A DNA stretch of 24,818 nt, taken from an uncultured Candidatus Peribacteria bacterium (GTDB taxonomy: Bacteria > Patescibacteriota > Gracilibacteria > BD1-5 > JAGOOR01). The stretch covers positions 1-24,818 of the forward strand of contig CAZLKD010000001.1 in the NCBI GenBank assembly GCA_964560015.1. The letters run 5' to 3'. Positions 1-24,818 of the stretch are shown piece by piece. Under the pieces are notes generated by a model. That model worked only from the letters and a program-made list of their open reading frames with translations, was not told where the DNA came from and searched no databases. Position 1 is the stretch's first letter. Each line of letters begins with the position of its first letter. Position numbers and translations under genes: made by a program.

Positions 1-125
1 AGACCGATGACAAGACTTGAGATGCCAAATCTTTTTGCAATTGAGACAGACCCCAATACGAGTATATCAGCGCCTTTTATAAGTATCGCAAGACCTGCGA
101 TAAGAAGAAGAATTGAGAAAATCAT
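1..125 (-). CDS. Ca2+/Na+ antiporter (YrbG/CaCA family), 5' part only; runs off the window
   Basis: ATG at 125-123 gives MIFSILLLIAGLAILIKGADILVLGSVSIAKRFGISSLVIG, near-identical to the N-terminus of the full antiporter at 23788-24741 (104/125 nt identical by manual count). Confidence 0.9.
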   Translation of the reverse strand, partial: MIFSILLLIAGLAILIKGADILVLGSVSIAKRFGISSLVIG

Positions 126-128
126 ACC

Positions 129-188
129 AGAATTATATGTATGATAGTCATAATTCCCAGCAAAGATCTGAAAAAGATCGAATAAGCT
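129..188 (-). promoter_or_regulatory. Conserved upstream element of antiporter paralog A (candidate riboswitch/leader or operator)
   Basis: Blocks AGCTTA, GATCTTTTTCAGATC, TGCTGGGAATTAT and ATATAATTCT are shared with 24745-24805. Pairings GAUCU/AGAUC, AGC/GCU and GAAUUAU/AUAAUUC are possible in both copies. Confidence 0.6.
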
Positions 189-336
189 GAAATCGATCTT
201 CATAGATGGGTATTAGTAGAAATCAGCGGGTGTGAAGCAACCCGTGTACTAGGGTAATAAAAACTCCAACTTTTCACCCCATTTTTGCTCTTAAAATACG
301 CTGAAAGCCTTATGGGGCTTGAAATGGATATTTGTC

Positions 337-363
337 AGGGTTCGAATCCCTTCTCCCCAACCA
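337..363 (+). pseudogene. tRNA 3' fragment (T-arm, acceptor strand, CCA); att-like remnant
   Basis: AGGG-TTCGAAT-CCCT-TCTCCCCA-A-CCA. No matching 5' half lies about 76 nt upstream. The acceptor implies a U1:A72 (Gln-like) tRNA, identity uncertain. Confidence 0.75.
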
Positions 364-384
364 AACGATACACTAATGATATAT

Positions 385-414
385 AGTGACTCTACTCCCT
401 AGAGTCACTTTTTT
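385..414 (+). terminator. Intrinsic terminator downstream of the tRNA fragment
   Basis: AGTGACTCTA-CTCCC-TAGAGTCACT 10-bp stem followed by a T tract. Confidence 0.8.
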
Positions 415-1201: not shown

Positions 1202-3715
1202 ATGGCCAACCCACTAAACATACAAATAGGAATTGATCTTGGTACAACAAATTCATCTGTTGTCATAAATAACAATGGTAATATTGAAATTGTGAAAAAG
1301 CCCTGAGGCGTTGAGTATACAGCATCTATTTTTGGTTTTGATAAAGCAAAAAATAAAGTGGTTTGACAGAAAGCTTATGAAAATTATTACAAAGATGCAT
1401 CTGAAGATGAGATTAAAAACTACAAACCCGAAGTTAAGAGACTCATGGGTACTTCAGAAAAATTCCACTTTGAAAGAGGAGATATAGATATGGGGCCCGA
1501 AGAAATCTCAGCTGAAATTCTCAAAAGTTTAAAAGAGGATATTTTAAGAAAATATTCAGATTTTAATACTGTAGCAGCTGTAATAACAGTCCCAGCAGCT
1601 TTCTCAGTTCTTCAATCTGAGGCAACAAAGCGAGCTGGTAATCTTGCTGGATTTAAGCATGTAGTTTTATTGCAAGAACCTATCGCTGCAGCAATTGCAT
1701 CTGGCTTCACAAATACTAAGAATGAAAATTGGCTTATTTACGACTTTGGCGGTGGCACTTTTGATGTGGCATTGATCGCGTCAAAAGAAAGAGCACTTTC
1801 AGTACTTGGGCATAATGGTGATAATTTTCTTGGAGGGAAAAATTTTGATTTAGAGATCGTCGATAAAGTTATAGTACCAAAGATAATGGAAAAGTTTTCT
1901 GTTAAAAATTTTAACAGGTCAAATGAAAAATATAGAAGTGCTTTTTCACAATTAAAGTTTTTTGCAGAAACAGCTAAGATTGAACTTTCTGATTATGATA
2001 AGACTTCAATCGTCGTAGAAAATATTTGAATGGATGATGAAGGTAAAGAAATCTTCCTTACAATGAACTTCTCAAGAAAAGAATTTGAATCCTTGATTAA
2101 GCCAATGATCGATCGCACAATCGAACTTTCTAAAGCAACTTTGAAAGAGTCTGGCATTAAGAGCAGTTCTGTTGCAAAGGTGGTTTTAGTTGGTGGGCCA
2201 ACGCAGATACCTTATATTAGAGAAAGGATAGAGAACGATCTGAAAATAACTGTGGATTCGTCTGTTGATCCCCTTACTGTCGTTGCAAAAGGTGCTTGTA
2301 TATTTGGAATTAGCCAAAAGATTCCAAAAGAACTAATGGAGATCGATGAGAAAAAAGCTAATGAAGGAACTCTCTCTATAAACCTTAATTATGAATCTCT
2401 AACATCTGATACAGAAGAAACGATTAGTGGTGTTATAGAAAACCTTAAGGATTCAGAGGAAGAATTTTATATCCAAATCCAATCTGACAGCGGATTTTAT
2501 AATGGAACAAAAATTAAGCTAAAAAGTGGAAAATTCTTTGAAACAGTTGCTGTTGAGCCAAACAAACAAAATGTGTATTGGCTTTATCTTTTTGATAAAC
2601 AGGGTAATTCTGTTCCCATTGATCCTGATTCGTTCATTATTACCCATGGATTATCGGTATCTGGAGCTCCCCTACCTCATTCTGTGAGTATCATTGTTGC
2701 GCAAAAAGATTATACAAGAAACGTGGCCATGAATATTTGTGAGAGGGTTTTTGATAAAGGATCAATGTTGCCTGTAAAGAAAGTTCTTACAGAATATAAG
2801 ACCTCAAGAAAGCTAAAGAAAGGAGAAGAAAATGAATTAGGGATAGTTGTCGTTGAGGGTGAGTCTGAAATGCCCGATCGTAACGGATTTTTGTGTCAAA
2901 TTGGAATCAATGGTAAAGACTTACCACACGATTTACCAGAGGGAACTCCAGTAGAATTAACTGTCGTTGTAAATGAATCACGTGAAGTTTTTATCACTGC
3001 GTATATACCATTGATTGATTTAACTGTTAATGCCCGATCAACTTCTCATGATGAAACAATTGAACTTAAGAATATCGAGGAAGATTTAGAAACTCAAAAA
3101 GAAAGAGCCAAATTAGTTTCAGAAAGCTTATCACCTGATGAAAGAAAAGTCCTTGATAACAATATCCAGTCAGCACAAACAAGTGTTAGAAATGCATCAG
3201 TTGATGAGGATGAAAAGATGAAAGCAGATAAACAAATTAAAGATCTTAAAATAACACTTGATAATATTGAGAAAGAGAAAGAAATGCCCCAGTTGGTTAA
3301 GGAGTTTAAAGATGGGATCCAGGATACCCAATCAATTATCAATGACTATGCCGATGAGAAAGACAAAAGCACGAATAATGACCAATTGAGTAAACTTAAA
3401 ACTGAGGGAGAGAAAGCAATAGCAGATAATGATAAATCACTTCTGATTCGTATTAATGAACAAATTAAAGAACTCAGTTCTAAAGCGATATATTCAAACC
3501 CAGCTACATGGGTTCATCAGTTCAAAAAAATCATCGCTGGAAATCCAAATTTCATCAATGAAAAGGAAGCTAAATATTATATTCAGAAAGGAGAAAAGGC
3601 CATCGAGCTTGGAGATGTTGATGAAATAAAACGTTGTGTCCAAAACTTGTTAATGCTACTCCCTTCAGATCTACAAGAAACAATAAAAGATAATCTTTCT
3701 GGTATAACCCGCTAA
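1202..3715 (+). CDS. Atypical Hsp70/DnaK-family chaperone (837 aa, code 25)
   Basis: GIDLGTTNS, VITVPAAF, LQEPIAAA, DFGGGTFD, GDNFLGG, LVGGPTQIP, VAKGA. In-frame TGA at 1304, 1364 and 2027 read as Gly. Joins ORF-track fragments 1445-2029 and 2030-3715. Confidence 0.95.
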
Positions 3716-7384: not shown

Positions 7385-8641
7385 TTATTGAATGCATGGA
7401 AGCCCCTCTTTCAGTACCATTTTCTCTCCAAATTGCCTCAGAACCTCCCCTTTGTCGCCGTCACTACCTCCTGTAAATATAAAATTCAAATATTCGGTCT
7501 TGGTTGTGATCTTGGCATTTTCTCCATGAATCATGTTTTGCATAGCGTTGATCTTGTCGACCTCTTTGGTGAGTTTTTTGTCGAGTAGTGGCTTGTAGCT
7601 CGTCATCGACTCACAGAGCTTCACAAGCCCCTCAATAAGGGCTTCTTCTCGGATATGTTTCTCATTACATGTTCCTTTACCTCCGTGGCGATTGCAACGA
7701 TAGTATATATACCTCTTTCCGTGTCTATTAAACTTCTCTTCTCCCGTGATTCCCGATCAACAACATCCACATTTGAAGATTTTACTGAAATAGAAGTGTT
7801 TACGACCCCAAACTCCTTTCGGTGGCACCTTTAACTTCTCTCTGGCTTGTTCGTATATCTCTTTCGTGATTAAAGGTGTGTGGTGACCCGTATAATGGTT
7901 ACCACTTCATTTTGGATACTCATAGTCTCAATAATAAAAGGTGCAGTCGAGCATCCGAAATATCATACTGAGAGTGAGCCGTTTCCCCCTCTTTGTTCGA
8001 AGTCACCTGTCATGAGCAAATTCCCATACCTGTCGACCACTGAATCCATCTTTTACAATCCACTCAAACATTTGTTGAACAATAGGAGCTCTAATGGGAT
8101 CGACAGCAACATGGCTCTTTTCAGAAACAATTCTACCTCGAACAACTTCATATCCTATAGGCACACCTCCTGGTCGCATACCAAGCTCACATTTTCGTCT
8201 CAATCCTCGTTTCACGTTCTTGGTTCGATTATCATTCTCCAGTTTTGCCTGGCTACAGAGAATCATCAGGAGAAATTTCTCATTGGGATTATTGGAAAAA
8301 GTTGATCCATGAGTGCGAATCTGTACAAGTACACCTTCATCCATCATATCTACAATAGACCCAAGATCTCCAGCATTCCTCGAAAGTCGATCAGGAGCCC
8401 AAGTAAGGATAGCATTGTAGCGTTGTTCTCTCAGACCGTTGAGAAGCTCCATATAGACCCTGCGTTGTCCTGAGGCTTTGGCTGATTTACTCTCGGTCAA
8501 TGTCTCAACAATTTCCAGTCATTCTTGTTCAGCGATCTTGTGCATCTCATTAATCTGAGAATCAATGGAAAGGGCCTGTTTTTCATCGGCTTCCGATGAT
8601 TTTCGTGCATACAGACAGTATTTGAGAGGTGTATCTTCCAT
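7385..8641 (-). CDS. Large serine recombinase (resolvase, recombinase and Zn-ribbon domains; 418 aa)
   Basis: KYCLYARKS catalytic motif, WAPDRLSRN, PIGY, KCGCCG...YYRC Zn ribbon. GAGAG upstream of the ATG at 8641. Confidence 0.93.
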
Positions 8642-8698
8642 ACTCTCATTAATGTATATTTCGACCCTCAAGTCTAGGCAAAAGTGCTAGAAAAGGCA

Positions 8699-10192
8699 CT
8701 AAATGATCCAAATTCCTACAGTATGATCCTTTTTTCCGAAAGCATGGTTGACCATAATGGTAAAAGCATCCACAAGGTCGTCATGTCGCTCTTTTCAGAA
8801 GCCCACAAGTTGTTCTACAAGCATGATTCATGCTTCTGTTTTAGGGAATTTGATTCTTCCAGTTTTGATCAAGTCAGTGACAAGGGCGAGACGTTCTCTT
8901 TTTGACCCATGAGGTTTAATGCCAACTATATCCATCCTCTGACCTTTTCGCAGATATTGCTCCATAGCAGCTTGATACCCGACCGTTTCTATGATAACCT
9001 CATGCTTGTTGTGTTTATGTATCCGTGATAGTCTTTGGTGATATTCCGCCAGTGTTTCGGCTGTTTCTGAAAAATCCATTTTTCGAGCGAAAGCGTCGAC
9101 AATGAAAAGGATTTTATGTTGCTTCCGTCACCATTCCCATCCTGTCACGAAAGCAGTGTAATCTGCAGCGGCACTTTCGGAAATAGCCAAGTCGACACCT
9201 GTATTGAGATCAAGAGGATGTGGTAAGCTATTACTATAACATCATCTGCGTTCATTAACCATAGCTGGAGCTGGCTCAGGAAAATTATCATACCAGCGTA
9301 TCCATTCTGGAAAAATTACTTGTCACTCTGCTCACGCATCTTCGAGCATATATTCAGTCCTCCAGGCGACCTCACTTCAGACAGTTCATTTGAGTTCGAT
9401 AATGTTTTCTTCTGAATATCTCTCTGGCCAGAGGCATTTTCCGTGTTCGTCCATCAACGGATATTTTCGGAAAACTCAATTTTTTTGACCGCTCTCGATT
9501 CGATCCTTCATCCTCATCAGGAGTGAATCACGGTGGAGCATATTCCCAACAAGGAATATACGTGTTTTTTTGAGATCACCGAGAGGGATGATTTCTTTGG
9601 TGAACCACTCAAATAATTTATCCCTTCCCTCTCTTGTTTTGATAGATTGTAGATCCTCGATGTCATCCGCAATAATCAATTGAGGTCTATTATTCCTATG
9701 TCTGATTCATCGGGCGGATTGATCCACTGAAACAACTGTAATGCGGGCTTGGGATTTAAGGAGAACGATAGATGAAGCGTTGAATTCGTCTCACTCTTCT
9801 CGAAAAGGTCAGAGGTCTTTGGAGAGAAGTTCATTGTTGATTATTTCCTCTTTCAAATTACGCATATACATCTTTGCCTGTGCTTGGGTCTGAGCAACGA
9901 TGACAATGAATTTGTAATTATTCTTACCCAGAATACCCCAGAGTGGAAAAGCAGTATTGATAATGGTCGATTTACCAGATCAACGAAATGCCATGATGGT
10001 AGTAAAGAGATTTGTCGGGTCTTCGATAAGATGAAACATCTCTTTATGAAACCACGCCATCGGTGAAGTAATGTAGTGGGCGAAATATATCTCGAAGAAG
10101 AGCTGGAAACTCTCACGAGCGAGTCCTCGTCGGATAGGAGCAGATTTTTCTATGGCTTTCATGTCTTTCGGATTTATAGGATTTTTTTTCAT
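8699..10192 (-). CDS. terL: Phage terminase large subunit (497 aa)
   Basis: Walker A FR(TGA)SGKST, Walker B LIIADD, nuclease motifs GVDLA, ADYTA and HDDLVDAF. Stop TAG 8701-8699. Confidence 0.9.
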
Positions 10193-10203
10193 AGTGTGAG
10201 GGA

Positions 10204-10599
10204 TTAAGATTTAGGATTGTAATTTTTGAGAACTCTGCGAATGACTTCTCTCTGTGCTTTGGTAAGGGCTTCTTTTTCTGGGGTATCAATAATCTCGATC
10301 TTGTTTCCATAGACCGAGTGTCTCGATTTAAGCCAGAAGATAATGGCTGTCATATTGCCGTCCTTCATGCCTTTCAGAAGCTGAGACTCAGCAACATCGT
10401 TCATAAGAAAAACTCATCTCTGAAGGGCTTTTTTCGCTTTCTTGGCAAAGACAGGATCACTTTGTAACCACCGATAATATGTGGATCTTCCAATGCCGCC
10501 TTTCTCACAAGCGATCTGAACAATGGGGGTCTTCTCAAGATGCTCTAAGAGTAGAGTTTTGTCCGTTTTGATACGGGAAATGATATTTTGTGTAGTCAT
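10204..10599 (-). CDS. Terminase small subunit-like HTH protein (131 aa)
   Basis: HTH ACEKGGIGRSTYYRW, then AIIFWLKSR. Lies directly upstream of terL. Two ORF-track fragments joined by TGA at 10414-10416. Confidence 0.7.
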
Positions 10600-10603
10600 A
10601 TTT

Positions 10604-11398
10604 TTAGGTTATTTTTTCAGCTAATTTACCTGTGTATTCTTGCCATCTGTGAATGATAGCACGACAGTAGACAGGATTGATTTCAACCGTCACACACTTT
10701 CTACCAGTCTGTTCTGAAGCCATGAGCGTACTTCCTGAACCCCCGAAAGGATCATAAACGGTGTCATCTCGTTTACTGGAATTGAGTATCAATTCTCTGA
10801 GAAGCGGAATTGGCTTCATAGTAGGATGGATCGTATTCTTTCTCACTCTCGCAAACGGAAGAATGCTCTTCGCTTTTCAACCATAGAAGGCATGTTTTCC
10901 ATACCATCCATAAGCAATGAGCTCGTGTTGAGGCAGATAATCAAGACGGCCAATGATTGCCGAGTCTTTTATCCATACCAAGAGCTGTGTAAACTTCATT
11001 CACGCCTGAAGCATTCACTCTCGAAGAGCAAATATCATTTTGTCGGCATTAAAGATGTACGATGCATTTTTTTCTGCAAAGTATGGGAGCATAGGAGTAA
11101 TCCAGTCTCGTGTGAACTGGGCATATTCTCTGTCAGTCTGTATTCCGTCTTGAGGGATATCTTCGAACTTCTCCGTTGTACCGGTGAATCATTTCTTTGA
11201 TTCGACATAATCGATTCAATATGGTGGATCTGTCAGGAGAAGATTGATTCTCTGTCCATCTCTCAAGAGTCGCTTCCATATATCTGGATGACGAGAATCT
11301 CCACAGAAGAGAAGATGGTCTCAGAGGAGAAATATATCTCCTTGAGCAATATTAAGCTCCTTTGATTTTGGTAGCTTTGGTGTTGGTGAGTGTTTCAT
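10604..11398 (-). CDS. Beta-class N6A/N4C DNA methyltransferase (264 aa)
   Basis: LLFCGDS, TDPPY, HPTMKP and DPFGGSGST in beta order; open frame in code 25. Confidence 0.9.
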
Positions 11399-12665
11399 AG
11401 CGTTTGATTATTAGGTCAAGAAATAAAGGTTCGTGTTCCATAAGGAGAGCCGTGCGTTTCATTTGCTCGCAGGCAATCAACGTGCTACCCGATCAACCAA
11501 AGAGATCGAGAACAATATCTCCAACTTTCGTACAGCGTTTAAGGGGCTTCTCGTGGAGCGTGGGTGGTTTTTCCGTAGGATGTTCGTAAGTACCTACTAC
11601 GAGTCTTTTTGCGAGCCACAGGTCAAATAAATCGATAATGTCTTCAAGAACTCGATTTCCTACTCATACTTCTTTATCAAGAACTTCCGTCAGATTTCTT
11701 AAGTCTGATGAAAGGTATGGTTTTCATCGTGTCCCATAGACACACGGTTCATAGCTCCTATTGAATGCGATCTGCGGTGTGGCATTCATATTGTTCTTAA
11801 CCCAGAGACATACTCTTCTCGGTTCGAGTCCAAGTGAGGAATATATATTTTGCAGGAGTCAGATGGAATTCGGATCGCACCAGCAAAAGATATGTGTGTC
11901 CTCGTGGGAATGTGCTAGACCATTCGAAAGTGTTGTAACAAGGAACTCTCTGTATGCTTCTCAAGTCTTTGCATCATTTGTTTTCTTACCTCCATACTGT
12001 TTGCTGTTATTCAGTCACTTGGAATAATCTAAACCTATGTTGTATGGCGGATCATAATAGAGCATCGACACTTTTCACGATCCTTCTGGTAGAGAATGTA
12101 TCAACTCAGATACCTGGTCGGCATTTGTAGAATCTCAGCACATAATTCTATGATTTCAGAGAGCATAGATATCTCAGAGTTTACTTTGTGGTTCTCCGAG
12201 AGCTTCAAGTTCTTTCTCTGTTTGAAAATTATCCTCTTCAACTCACAACATGGCATCCCACATGGAAGAGAGTTCTGCGTTATCAAATCCTACATCGAGG
12301 AGGAGTCATACATCGAAGTCTTTAAGAATATCGAAATCCCAATCTCACGTATTCTGATTGAGTCTCAAATTAAGCTCTTTCTCCCTTTCTAGCGGAAGTG
12401 CAAGATAGAGTACTGGTACCTCTTTCATTCCGAGGGCTTTGGACGCTTCTAGTCGAAAATGTCATCCAATGACTACCTGCTTTCGCTCTGGGGTGTTGTT
12501 CACAATAATTGGATCTACTAATCAGTAGCTCCTAATACTTTCCATTAACGCCTGCATCTGGCGTTCCGAGTGCTTCCGAGGATTGTAGGAGGCGGGATTC
12601 AGAGTGTCTATGGGAACATAGACTATTTTCTGACGCAGGTCTGAGACCTTGATTTTCTGAGACAT
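11352..12665 (-). CDS. ParB-like N-terminal domain fused to beta-class DNA methyltransferase (437 aa)
   Basis: YNPRKH...G(TGA)HFRLEA ParB motif, YDPPY, HPTEKP, DLFG(TGA)SGST. 15 in-frame TGA codons. Confidence 0.92.
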
Positions 12666-18682: not shown

Positions 18683-18800
18683 TGGGACTCGAATAGAGAG
18701 CGATCTCTGCTCGAAGATATGCCCACAGGCATATCTGTCCCGAGCCGTCTCCGGCAGCGAGTGAAACGAGCGAGAGGAAAGAATCCCTCATTCCCAACCA
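18683..18800 (+). other. 118-nt multi-hairpin GC-rich element ending in a tRNA-type 3' end with CCA
   Basis: Hairpins GAGC/GCTC, AGATATGCC/GGCATATCT and GCCG/CGGC; ends GAATCCCTCATTCCCAACCA. Confidence 0.55.
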
Positions 18801-18822
18801 TTACGTACATTAATGTTACATT

Positions 18823-18850
18823 GTGACCCTATTACCTAGGGTCATTTTTT
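18823..18850 (+). terminator. Intrinsic terminator homologous to 385-414
   Basis: TGACCCTA-TTACC-TAGGGTCA followed by 6 T. Confidence 0.8.
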
Positions 18851-22815: not shown

Positions 22816-23799
22816 ATGCGTCCCATGAATTACTTTTCGATATCGTCCCAGCTTTTGATAGAAGAGGCACAAAAATTCTCACTAAAAACAGAAATACTCG
22901 TCCCAGAAAAAAACCTTTTTATTATTTCACATCAAAATAAATCTGTGATGTTTAAAAGTGTAGATTTTTGAGAGAATTCTTTTCTTTGAGCCAGAATAGC
23001 AGACGATAAAGAGCTCACCTATGTGGTACTCGATCGTTTGGGATACCCTATTGCTTCGACAGTATATCTCGATGCAAAAGACTTCACTTCTACAGGCCTT
23101 GAAAATATACAAATACCTCCTTTCCCTCTTATTATCAAACCTATTGATGAAGCACATGGAAATGGAGTAATGATGAATATTAATAATAAGTTAGAATTGG
23201 AGCAAAAGCTCCATCAATCATTTCGAGCATACCCTCGTTTGATAATCCAGAGGCAAATCACTGGAAAAGAATTTCGCGTCCTCGTCTGTAAAAAGTCTAT
23301 TATCCTCGCCTTATTTCGTCATCCGCCTGTTATAAGGGGAGATGGTATATCAACTATTCTGTCGCTTATTAAAAAAGAAAATTCGACCCATCCTCTTCGC
23401 GGTGAGTGATACAATAAACCTCTCGGACTTATCAAAGTAGACGATGAGCTCCAAAATCATATAGCAAAGTATTGATATATCCTTGAGAATGTTCTCGAGT
23501 CTGGGAAAACTCTAGAGCTTCGAGGAAACTCTAACCTATGAACTGGAGGAACTATAGAAGAAATTACTGATATTCTTCATCCATCAATAAAGAATATGTG
23601 TCTTCATATTGCTGATTTTTTAAAGCTGGGCATCTGTGGTATCGATATTATGTCGACAGATCCGACACTTCCCCTTGTTGAGACTGGGGGTATTGTCTTG
23701 GAGGTGAATGCATCCCCAGGTATTGGGTGAGATCGTGAGCTCACCTCAGTTAATACGGCACAAGAGATACTCAAATGTGTTTTTGATTTACCTCACTAA
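22816..23799 (+). CDS. Stand-alone cyanophycin-synthetase/GshF-like ATP-grasp ligase (327 aa)
   Basis: DDKELT, IIKPIDEAHGNGV, GKEFRVLV, P.IRGDG.STI, SNL(TGA)TGG, CGIDI, LEVNASPG. Confidence 0.85.
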
Positions 23800-24741
23800 A
23801 AGATAGGTAATATAGGCGCTATACATCATCACGAATACGAGTCACTGCCATCTCTCGAGCTGGTTTTTTTGACCAATTAGGAGAGCGAGAAATAAGAGTG
23901 TTGATGCGCCAATACATACTCATATGTCTACAAAAGAGGCTGATTGTATTCGTACAGGACTAATAATAGCCGATGCTCCGAGGACCCAGAAAATATTAAA
24001 TATATTTGATCCGACGATATTACCAACAGCGATATCATTTTGTCCCTTACGTGCTGCAACAATAGAAGTGACGAGCTCGGGAAGAGATGTACCTATCGCA
24101 ACAACAGTAAGCCCTATAATTCTCTCAGACATTCATAAAAGCTCTGCCATATGAACTGCTCCATCAACAAACATATTTCCTCAGACAAAAAGTCCTATCA
24201 AACCACCTGCAATCAAATGAAATGTCATCCAATTTGTGTAGAGTTTTACGCCTTTGTCTTCATTCTCTTCGTCATGACTAATCTGAAAGACGTAATAGAG
24301 AAATATCACGAAAAAGAGAAGAAGCACCAGACCATCAGAGCGACTAATGAGATTATTATCACCCTGACCAAAATAAATATCGGCACCGAGGAGACCAACG
24401 GCAACGATAGCAAGGAGAGAAAATGGTATCTCCTTCCATACTGTTGAATCCCTCACGGGTATGGTAGAAAGAACACTGGTAAGCCCCAGAATCAGAAGAA
24501 TATTTGATATATTTGATCCGACGATATTGCCTAGAGCAATATCGCTATTATTTTTGAAGCTCGCGAAGGTGCTGACTATGAGCTCTGGGAGAGATGTCCC
24601 AAAAGCAACGATGGTAAGACCGATAACTAGACTTGAGATGCCGAATCTTTTTGCAATAGAGACAGAACCAATAACGAGGATATCAGCACCTTTTATCAGT
24701 ATCGCGAGACCCGCTATGAGAAAGAAAATAGATAAAAGCAT
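23788..24741 (-). CDS. yrbG: Ca2+/Na+ antiporter (CaCA family, 317 aa)
   Basis: Two alpha repeats GTSLPEL...GNIVGSNI; continuous through TGA to TAA 23790-23788. Confidence 0.93.
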
Positions 24742-24744
24742 GTG

Positions 24745-24805
24745 AGAATTATATTCACGAGAGCTATAATTCCCAGCAGAGATCTGAAAAAAGATCAGTT
24801 AAGCT
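24745..24805 (-). promoter_or_regulatory. Conserved upstream element of antiporter paralog B
   Basis: Same blocks and pairings as 129-188. Confidence 0.6.
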
Positions 24806-24818
24806 CGGATGGATTCTC

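What the first reader, a model, noticed from the sequence alone, without database searches (positions are those of the whole stretch)
129..188. Structured ~60-nt element conserved upstream of both cation-antiporter paralogs (candidate ion-sensing riboswitch or operator)
Seen: 129-188 and 24745-24805 share (sense strand) AGCUUA-N3-GAUCU(U4-5 C)AGAUC-UYU-GCUGGGAAUUAU-N13-AUAAUUCU-N5-AUG. AGC/GCU encloses an internal loop and a GAUCU/AGAUC hairpin, and a second GAAUUAU/AUAAUUC stem abuts the start codon. The blocks stay nearly invariant while the spacer and the synonymous coding sites have drifted. Established: Na+ (DUF1646) and Li+ (nhaA-I/II) riboswitches sit before cation antiporters. Inference: this is an ion-responsive RNA. 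Alternatively it is a DNA operator with a fixed 13-nt spacer overlapping a TATAAT box 6 nt before ATG (leaderless promoter).
Basis: partly seen in the sequence, partly recalled or inferred. Interest (0 to 1): 0.65.

Follow-up and report, generated by a model that had tools for sequence, protein, structure and literature searches.

The report
Leaderless promoter region of duplicated antiporter genes
The 60-base block shared upstream of two duplicated cation-antiporter genes is real and kept by selection, but it is most likely ordinary promoter and regulatory DNA for a messenger that starts at the ATG, not an ion-sensing riboswitch.

Summary
Window 126-188 and 24742-24805 (minus strand) share the stated blocks: 50 of 64 aligned positions are identical, against 50% identity at four-fold synonymous sites of the adjacent genes. 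So the block is under selection and is not duplication residue.

The riboswitch reading is not supported:
- A perfect TATAAT lies exactly 6 nt before the ATG in both copies.
- Genome-wide, -10-like boxes peak at that same spacing and there is no Shine-Dalgarno signal. This TGA=Gly genome therefore commonly makes leaderless mRNAs.
- That places the rest of the block at about -25 to -64, upstream of the transcript.
- Rfam gives nothing, even at E up to 10.
- All 14 proposed pairs are invariant, folds are weak (z -1.4 and -2.4), and the minimum-energy folds differ between copies.
- No other copy was found in about 520 related genomes, two large contig collections or viral contigs.

Best reading: a sigma-70-type leaderless promoter (weak -35 CTGGGA, 17 nt, TATAAT, 6 nt, ATG) with conserved upstream regulatory DNA.

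A divergent plus-strand promoter is not excluded, because the second "stem" is two back-to-back -10-like boxes.

Both copies lie in a tRNA-Gln-linked island region, and the window ends are assembly breaks inside this repeat.

The parts
1..125 (-). 5' part of CaCA (Na_Ca_ex) antiporter copy A. The gene continues on contig C86 and is 317 aa under code 25.
   Evidence: C86 overlaps the window start by an exact 55 nt.
132..137 (-). Copy A -10 box TATAAT, 6 nt before the ATG at 125-123.
155..160 (-). Copy A weak -35 hexamer CTGGGA (3 of 6 to TTGACA), 17 nt from the -10 box.
   Evidence: Read. Other TATAAT-N6-ATG promoters of this genome carry TTGACA/TTGAAA at 15-17 nt.
150..162 (-). Copy A invariant block TGCTGGGAATTAT (13/13), about -37 to -25 from the ATG. 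On the plus strand it holds a -10-like CATAAT at 149-154.
165..179 (.). Copy A inverted repeat GATCT-N5-AGATC: two GATC sites around a T-run, about -54 to -40.
183..188 (-). Copy A AGCTTA, the upstream edge of the conserved block.
189..235 (.). Poorly conserved linker (29/47 identical). It separates the promoter block from the next conserved segment.
236..337 (+). Conserved 100-nt arm (83/102 identical between A and B). It is also found in two sister species beside a tRNA-Gln-type or tmRNA-type 3' end.
338..363 (+). 3' end fragment of a tRNA-Gln gene (T-arm, acceptor 3' strand, CCA) with no 5' half.
385..409 (+). Intrinsic terminator hairpin with T-run. It is homologous to the terminator after tRNA-Gln genes of relatives.
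23788..24741 (-). CaCA antiporter copy B: 317 aa under code 25, 4 in-frame TGA codons, 90% aa identity to copy A.
24748..24753 (-). Copy B -10 box TATAAT, 6 nt before the ATG at 24741-24739.
24766..24778 (-). Copy B invariant block TGCTGGGAATTAT. It holds the weak -35 CTGGGA at 24771-24776. On the plus strand a TATAAT lies at 24765-24770.
24781..24796 (.). Copy B inverted repeat GATCT-N6-AGATC. The T-run is one T longer than in copy A.
24800..24805 (-). Copy B AGCTTA. The upstream region continues on contig C9, which overlaps the window end by 55 nt.

Best explanation
The shared block is the promoter region of a duplicated CaCA antiporter gene whose mRNA is leaderless.

RNA polymerase with the primary sigma factor would use TATAAT (A 137-132, B 24753-24748) and start at or next to the A of the ATG, 7 nt downstream. 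A weak -35 (CTGGGA) sits 17 nt upstream, inside the invariant TGCTGGGAATTAT block. The GATC-T-run-GATC inverted repeat and AGCTTA lie at about -40 to -64.

These upstream blocks are best read as DNA sites that set or regulate promoter strength, such as an UP-like T-tract or a site for an activator or repressor.

What is shown:
- The architecture and its exact spacing.
- Its genome-wide recurrence.
- Purifying selection on the blocks.

What is inferred:
- The transcription start at the ATG.
- That the upstream blocks bind protein. No regulator is identified.
For: 1. TATAAT-N6-ATG is present in both copies.
2. Genome-wide, -10-like hexamers before the first ATG of long ORFs peak at spacer 6. There are 73 cases against about 18 per position as baseline; exact TATAAT gives 12 against about 1.5. 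Spacers 7-10 are also raised, and GGAG-like words show no enrichment at any spacing.
3. Twenty-six TATAAT-N6-ATG gene starts are listed, several with TTGACA or TTGAAA at 15-17 nt. This is a normal sigma-70 promoter fused to the start codon.
4. A 6-8 nt distance from Pribnow box to start is the published signature of leaderless genes (PMC6028130).
5. Antiporter orthologues in sister species G006 and G016 have TATAAT-N6-ATG with otherwise unrelated upstream sequence.
6. The ATG is the conserved start: homologues of 317 aa align from residue 1.
7. Selection is evident: motif 50/64 identical against 50% at four-fold sites (binomial p 3.5e-6), with a near-neutral spacer and linker.
8. No sigma-70-type promoter is predicted upstream of the block on the gene's strand. 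A small terminator-like hairpin lies at 244-227 on that strand.
Against: - No transcription start data exist.
- The -35 is poor (3 of 6). The 13/13 conservation there is more than a weak -35 needs, so something else also constrains it.
- The loop of the GATCT/AGATC repeat differs by one T between copies. That suits a hairpin better than a rigid dimer operator.
- No second site of the same kind exists in the genome, so no regulon supports an operator.
- No regulator gene is adjacent.
- With only two copies, phylogenetic footprinting is thin.
Confidence: 0.65

Rival explanations
1. Compact divergent promoter. The arm GGGAATTAT is, on the plus strand, a second -10 box (CATAAT at 149-154 in A, TATAAT at 24765-24770 in B). 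It would drive a plus-strand non-coding transcript whose 5' end carries the GAUCU/AGAUC hairpin and which runs into the conserved arm, the tRNA-like end and the terminator. This can coexist with the leaderless antiporter promoter. The reader's second stem would then be two back-to-back -10 boxes.
For: - -10-like hexamers occur on both strands, each followed by TC.
- Conservation runs from the plus-strand box straight through the hairpin.
- The hairpin tolerates a loop-length change.
- A strong plus-strand terminator at 385-409 has no other plus-strand gene to terminate in copy A.
- Plus-strand folds of 158-290 have z -3.7 (A) and -2.0 (B).
- A short helix in the arm (alignment A3, columns 12-17 with 38-43) keeps pairing in four sequences, with wobble pairs that work only on the plus strand (read).
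Against: - There is no conserved -35 for it; that position overlaps the diverged bases around the antiporter ATG.
- The arm helix is weak (-2 to -4 kcal/mol) and is not the minimum-energy fold in every copy.
- RNAalifold on four sequences gives a positive covariation term.
- Copy B's terminator and tRNA-like end are decayed.
- In the two sister species the arm lies after a same-strand ORF and lacks this promoter block.
Confidence: 0.15
2. Cis-regulatory leader RNA (riboswitch, thermosensor or start-codon-masking hairpin) in a 5' UTR of the antiporter mRNA.
For: - The blocks can be drawn as AGC/GCU, GAUCU/AGAUC and GAAUUAU/AUAAUUC helices.
- Copy B folds with z -2.35.
- In copy A, AUCAUAC pairs with GUAUGAU across the start codon. 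Copy B keeps 4 of those 7 pairs, one through a change on both sides (read).
- Na+ and Li+ riboswitches are known before cation transporters (established knowledge).
Against: - Rfam gives no match, even at E up to 10.
- All 14 pairs are invariant, so there is no covariation.
- Copy A has z -1.4, and its minimum-energy fold lacks the third helix.
- The 3' arm of that helix is the TATAAT box at the leaderless spacing.
- There is no Shine-Dalgarno signal or terminator to act as an expression platform.
- No conserved upstream promoter is present.
- A covariance model finds nothing in 120 relatives.
Confidence: 0.06
3. Protein-binding sites of a site-specific recombination system. The block would be a distal part of the element-side arm next to the tRNA-Gln attachment core of a mobile island.
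For: - Both copies lie 150-210 nt from a tRNA-Gln 3' end fragment, inside a repeat that also holds a conserved arm. That arm is seen in sister species next to tRNA-Gln-type or tmRNA-type cores.
- A third tRNA-end-plus-terminator module lies at 18781-18850.
Against: - No integrase gene is found in the small islands examined.
- The arm occurs in G004 and G012 without the promoter block.
- The block is tied to the antiporter start at fixed promoter spacing.
- The features are inverted repeats, not direct arm-type repeats.
Confidence: 0.07
4. Neutral residue of a gene duplication, with no function.
For: Only two copies are known, both in one genome.
Against: - Four-fold synonymous sites next door are only 50% identical.
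- Third codon positions of the first 90 coding bases are 53% identical.
- The blocks are 13/13 and 10/11 identical, while the spacer between them is 6/12.
Confidence: 0.03

Closest known systems
Leaderless sigma-70-type promoters (GeneMarkS-2 'group C' pattern, as in Mycobacterium, Streptomyces and Deinococcus)
   Same: A Pribnow box lies 6-8 nt before the start codon with no Shine-Dalgarno sequence, and the pattern recurs genome-wide.
   Different: The host is a TGA=Gly Patescibacteria-type genome, for which I found no paper on leaderless starts. This promoter has a poor -35 and unusually conserved DNA from -25 to -64.
Na+ riboswitch (DUF1646 motif) and Li+ riboswitches (nhaA-I class)
   Same: The position before a cation transporter gene.
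   Different: There is no match to any Rfam model. No 5' UTR is predicted, there is no expression platform, no covariation, and no spread beyond one genome.
Operators formed by inverted repeats overlapping a core promoter (TetR/MarR/ArsR-type repressor sites)
   Same: GAATTAT-N13-ATAATTC has a fixed spacer length and half-site centres 20 bp apart, and it overlaps the -10 box.
   Different: One half-site is the -10 box itself and the other is a -10-like box on the other strand. No regulator gene is adjacent and no other site exists in the genome.
Islands accreted at tRNA/tmRNA genes, flanked by repeated 3' ends of the gene
   Same: tRNA-Gln 3' end, spacer and terminator modules repeat at 338-413, at 18781-18850 and on C9. 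An intact tRNA-Gln(CUG) lies at the end of C86.
   Different: No tyrosine integrase was found in the small islands. This bears on the surroundings, not on the promoter block itself.

Membership tests
Known ion riboswitches (Rfam: DUF1646 Na+, nhaA-I Li+, and all other Rfam 15 families) | Match to the family covariance model | tested here: not met
   No hit at gathering score. No relevant hit at E up to 10 on either copy.
Riboswitch or cis-regulatory leader in general | Lies in a transcribed 5' UTR, downstream of a promoter | tested here: inconclusive
   No promoter is predicted or conserved upstream. TATAAT lies 6 nt before the ATG at the genome's leaderless spacing. No TSS data exist.
Riboswitch or cis-regulatory leader in general | Structure supported by covariation across homologues | tested here: not met
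   All 14 pairs are invariant in the only two copies. No further homologues were found.
Riboswitch or cis-regulatory leader in general | Expression platform (terminator or ribosome-binding-site masking) | tested here: not met
   No terminator lies between the block and the ATG. The genome shows no Shine-Dalgarno use.
Leaderless sigma-70 promoter | -10 hexamer 6-8 nt upstream of the start codon | tested here: met
   TATAAT-N6-ATG in both copies. The published distance is 6-8 nt.
Leaderless sigma-70 promoter | The same arrangement is enriched at gene starts of the genome | tested here: met
   Peak at spacer 6 (73 against about 18) and a flat Shine-Dalgarno profile. Twenty-six exact cases are listed.
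Leaderless sigma-70 promoter | -35 element 16-18 nt upstream of the -10 | tested here: inconclusive
   CTGGGA at 17 nt matches only 3 of 6. The consensus scan did not call it.
Leaderless sigma-70 promoter | Transcript 5' end at the start codon | not testable with these tools
   Needs 5' end mapping.
Repressor or activator operator | Inverted repeat with fixed spacing at the promoter | tested here: met
   GAATTAT-N13-ATAATTC is present in both copies. GATCT/AGATC is also present, but its spacing differs by 1 nt.
Repressor or activator operator | Cognate regulator or further sites of a regulon | tested here: not met
   No other site exists in the genome. No DNA-binding gene lies next to either copy.

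The most novel reading that the evidence does not exclude
The block is transcribed on one strand or the other. Either it forms the 5' hairpin domain of a small plus-strand RNA made divergently from the antiporter promoter, or it is a lineage-restricted leader RNA that masks the antiporter start codon in response to ions or osmolarity. Either would be a new regulatory RNA in a TGA=Gly Patescibacteria genome.
Probability: 0.15. Interest if true: 0.5.

Novelty: new member of a known kind. Interest (0 to 1): 0.18.

Why it matters
For the finding itself, little: a riboswitch candidate turns into a promoter.

Two by-products are useful:
- This TGA=Gly genome shows a clear leaderless gene-start signature (TATAAT 6 nt before ATG, no Shine-Dalgarno signal). 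That affects gene-start calling and any search for 5' UTR elements in such genomes. One gene caller extended copy A by 26 codons through the promoter (P0004).
- The conserved -25 to -64 DNA is a defined candidate regulatory site before salt/osmotic-stress-type genes (antiporter beside otsA/otsB) in an uncultured lineage where no regulators are known.

Tried and rejected
- **Rfam.** I searched at gathering score and at E up to 10 on both copies. Only noise came back.
- **tRNA and tmRNA.** ARAGORN found no tRNA or tmRNA in the window. I first took the tRNA-like end at 338-363 for a tmRNA 3' end. The tmRNA model finds full tmRNAs in four relatives but they do not align with window 236-337. The end matches tRNA-Gln plus its downstream terminator in relatives.
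- **More copies of the block.**
  - BLAST in 40 relatives found none.
  - BLAST in 400 genomes of the class gave only short chance hits.
  - An exact degenerate pattern in metagenome and genome contigs gave 25 hits, all unrelated in their flanks.
  - Covariance model R1 in 120 relatives scored at most 25.5 bits.
  - A viral-contig pattern plus R1 gave noise only.
- **Coding explanation.**
  - An upstream ATG is in frame in copy A (P0004 carries the 26-residue extension).
  - The extra T in copy B shifts the frame and ends it at TAG after 18 codons.
  - The DNA stays conserved across that shift, so the block is not protein-coding.
- **Regulon search in the own genome.** I searched for GATCT-N3-8-AGATC, for the 12-mer GCTGGGAATTAT with up to 2 mismatches, and for AGCTTA-N3-4-GATC. 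Only the two copies combine them.
- **GATC frequency.** It is near expectation, so nothing can be said about methylation.
- **Structured RNA in the 100-nt arm.** RNAalifold on four sequences is unconvincing and the candidate hairpin is weak.
- **16S rRNA.** It is not assembled, so the anti-Shine-Dalgarno end could not be read.
- The contigs encoding the close homologues P0001, P0003 and P0025 (89-91% identical) could not be fetched.

Full report
**What is there**

The window is a whole 24,818-base contig (C1) of a 0.97-Mb, 154-contig, 82%-complete genome. Its genes are open only if TGA is read as glycine (code 25). Under table 11 the antiporter frame at 23788-24741 has four internal TGA codons before its TAA stop. 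They fall at positions where CaCA proteins have Gly, for example in LLGMSE and FVGGNMF.

The contig begins inside one CaCA (Pfam Na_Ca_ex) antiporter gene and ends just upstream of another. Both are on the minus strand. The ends are assembly breaks:
- The last 55 bases of contig C9 equal the reverse complement of the window's last 55 bases.
- The first 55 bases of contig C86 equal the reverse complement of the window's first 55 bases.

Joined, both genes encode 317 residues that are 90% identical.

**The observation**

In order they carry AGCTTA, GATCT, a T-run loop (5 nt in A, 6 nt in B), AGATC, TGCTGGGAATTAT, a 13-nt spacer, ATATAATTCT, three variable bases and ATG. Coordinates are given under parts.

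The similarity comes from duplication, so the real question is whether it exceeds neutral decay. It does.
- The genes are 82% identical in DNA, but only 56% at third codon positions and 72/145 (50%) at four-fold sites.
- The block is 50/64 identical (binomial p 3.5e-6 against 0.5).
- TGCTGGGAATTAT is 13/13 identical, and the interval 139-129 holding the ATATAATTCT box is 10/11.
- The spacer between them is 6/12 and the linker at 189-235 is 29/47, which is not significant.

The block is therefore a discrete element under selection.

It is not coding. An upstream ATG is in frame with copy A, and one gene caller used it (P0004). The extra T in copy B shifts that frame into a TAG, while the DNA downstream of the shift stays identical.

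**Why it is a promoter rather than a leader RNA**

In both copies a perfect TATAAT ends 6 nt before the ATG. I asked whether that is meaningful in this genome.
- For the first ATG of all long ORFs, -10-like hexamers pile up at a spacer of exactly 6 nt. There are 73 cases against a baseline of about 18 per position, with a raised shoulder at 7-10.
- Exact TATAAT gives 12 against about 1.5.
- GGAG-like words show no peak at any distance.
- The 26 exact TATAAT-N6-ATG gene starts include several with TTGACA or TTGAAA 15-17 nt upstream. These are ordinary sigma-70 promoters fused to the start codon.

This is the published signature of leaderless transcription, a Pribnow box 6-8 nt from the start (PMC6028130).

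The antiporter orthologues of two sister species also have TATAAT-N6-ATG, with otherwise unrelated upstream sequence. The ATG is the conserved protein start.

With the transcript starting at the ATG, the rest of the block lies upstream of it:
- TGCTGGGAATTAT lies at about -37 to -25 and contains a weak -35 (CTGGGA) at the canonical 17-nt spacing.
- The GATC-T-run-GATC repeat lies at about -54 to -40.
- AGCTTA lies at about -63 to -58.

**Tests of the RNA reading**

- Rfam gave nothing at gathering score and nothing relevant at E up to 10.
- The sense-strand folds are weak: A -13.2 kcal/mol with z -1.4, B -16.9 kcal/mol with z -2.35. The minimum-energy fold of copy A does not contain the GAAUUAU/AUAAUUC helix.
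- All 14 proposed pairs are invariant, which says nothing for a structure.
- No sigma-70-type promoter is predicted upstream of the block, and the linker where one would sit is not conserved.
- There is no terminator or ribosome-binding site to serve as an expression platform.

**Is it anywhere else?**

No copy was found in any of the following searches:
- 40 relatives including 18 species of the genus.
- 400 genomes of the class.
- 120 relatives searched with a covariance model built on the proposed structure.
- Exact degenerate-pattern scans of the metagenome and genome contig collections. All 25 hits were unrelated in their flanks.
- Viral contigs.

Inside the genome no other site combines the blocks. 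Close homologues of the protein exist in public data (P0001, P0003 and P0025, 89-91% identical).

**What remains open**

- The 13/13 conservation over a poor -35 needs more than basal promoter function.
- The inverted repeat GAATTAT-N13-ATAATTC consists of the antiporter's -10 box and a second -10-like box on the plus strand (CATAAT in A, TATAAT in B).
- A divergent plus-strand promoter is therefore possible. Its transcript would begin with the GAUCU/AGAUC hairpin, whose loop length differs between copies, as a hairpin allows. It would run towards the strong plus-strand terminator at 385-409.
- The genome has at least five sigma-70-family genes, so an alternative sigma factor or an activator is also conceivable.
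- These readings do not exclude the leaderless promoter. I rate the divergent-transcript reading at 0.15 and a true leader RNA at 0.06.

**Surroundings**

The A/B homology (81% identity) runs from the antiporter stop codon to window position 415 and no further. Beyond the promoter block it covers three segments:
- A 100-nt conserved arm at 236-337.
- A tRNA-Gln 3' end fragment at 338-363, with no 5' half (ARAGORN finds nothing).
- A spacer and terminator that in relatives follow intact tRNA-Gln genes.

The same arm occurs in two sister species. In one it sits beside a tRNA-Gln-type end, 5.6 kb from the intact tRNA. In the other it sits beside a tmRNA-type end, 3.6 kb from the intact tmRNA. In neither case is the promoter block or an integrase present.

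An intact tRNA-Gln(CUG) lies at the far end of C86.

Copy A is followed on the same strand by trehalose-6-phosphate synthase and phosphatase genes. The synthase gene has its own TATAAT 14 nt before its ATG.

Between the two copies lie the following genes:
- An Hsp70/AAA cassette.
- A serine recombinase.
- A terminase.
- Two DNA methylases.
- Copper-resistance genes.
- ATP-grasp genes.

So the two antiporter units sit in an island-accretion region at tRNA-Gln. That explains why the contig broke there, but not the promoter block.

**Verdict**

This is an ordinary kind of element, a new instance of a known kind, with an unidentified regulatory input.

Noticed in passing
window 1-55 and 24764-24818; G000 contigs C86 and C9: The window is a whole contig whose ends are assembly breaks in a diverged 1.25-kb repeat. 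C86 and C9 join it by exact 55-nt overlaps. This gives the order tRNA-Gln(CUG), otsB, otsA, antiporter A, window, then the upstream region of antiporter B on C9.
   Followed up: yes
whole genome G000: There is a genome-wide leaderless signature. TATAAT-like boxes peak 6 nt before start codons, often with TTGACA 15-17 nt upstream, and there is no Shine-Dalgarno enrichment. I found no paper describing this for TGA=Gly Patescibacteria.
   Followed up: partly
window 236-337; L132:4355-4504(-); L129:5724-5847; L130:1-125(-): A conserved 100-nt arm sits directly 5' of a tRNA-Gln-type or tmRNA-type 3' end in three species of the genus. A short helix (A3 columns 12-17 with 38-43) keeps pairing through changes that work only on the plus strand, but it is thermodynamically weak. 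No integrase lies in the 3.6-kb and 5.6-kb islands it bounds.
   Followed up: partly
window 338-413, 18781-18850, and the C9 end: There are three diverged copies of a module made of a tRNA-Gln 3' end, a spacer and a terminator. This suggests serial insertion of islands at a tRNA-Gln gene. Copy B carries a 26-nt hairpin insertion in the T-arm and a decayed terminator.
   Followed up: partly
G000 contig C86 981-3982: Antiporter A is followed on the same strand by a 739-aa GT20 trehalose-6-phosphate synthase with an N-terminal extension, and by a trehalose phosphatase. Together they form a salt/osmotic-stress-type cluster. The synthase has its own TATAAT 14 nt before its ATG.
   Followed up: partly
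G000 contig C16 about 2008-2950 (-): A third, more distant CaCA antiporter gene is present (71% aa identity to copy B over residues 158-315). It is interrupted by a run of N in the assembly, and it looks like the counterpart of the single-copy gene of sister species.
   Followed up: no
G000 contig C19 8603-8826: Three tandem 79-nt repeats each begin with the reverse complement of the 3' end of tRNA-Lys(UUU). The last repeat merges into the real tRNA gene.
   Followed up: no
G000 contig C65 1738-1900: tRNA-Gln(UUG) is followed about 75 nt later by a second copy of its own 3' end, close to an assembly break. No tmRNA or 16S rRNA gene is assembled in G000, although relatives have 430-450-nt tmRNAs.
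   Followed up: partly
window 199-201 (-) and protein P0004: A public gene call starts copy A at an upstream in-frame ATG and translates the promoter block as a 26-residue N-terminal extension. This is a likely start-site error caused by ignoring leaderless starts.
   Followed up: yes
window 7385-12665: A large serine recombinase, a terminase large subunit, a helix-turn-helix protein and two DNA methylases (one fused to ParB-N) lie together, with raised G+C (0.42 against 0.34). They look like a phage or satellite remnant between the two antiporter copies.
   Followed up: partly
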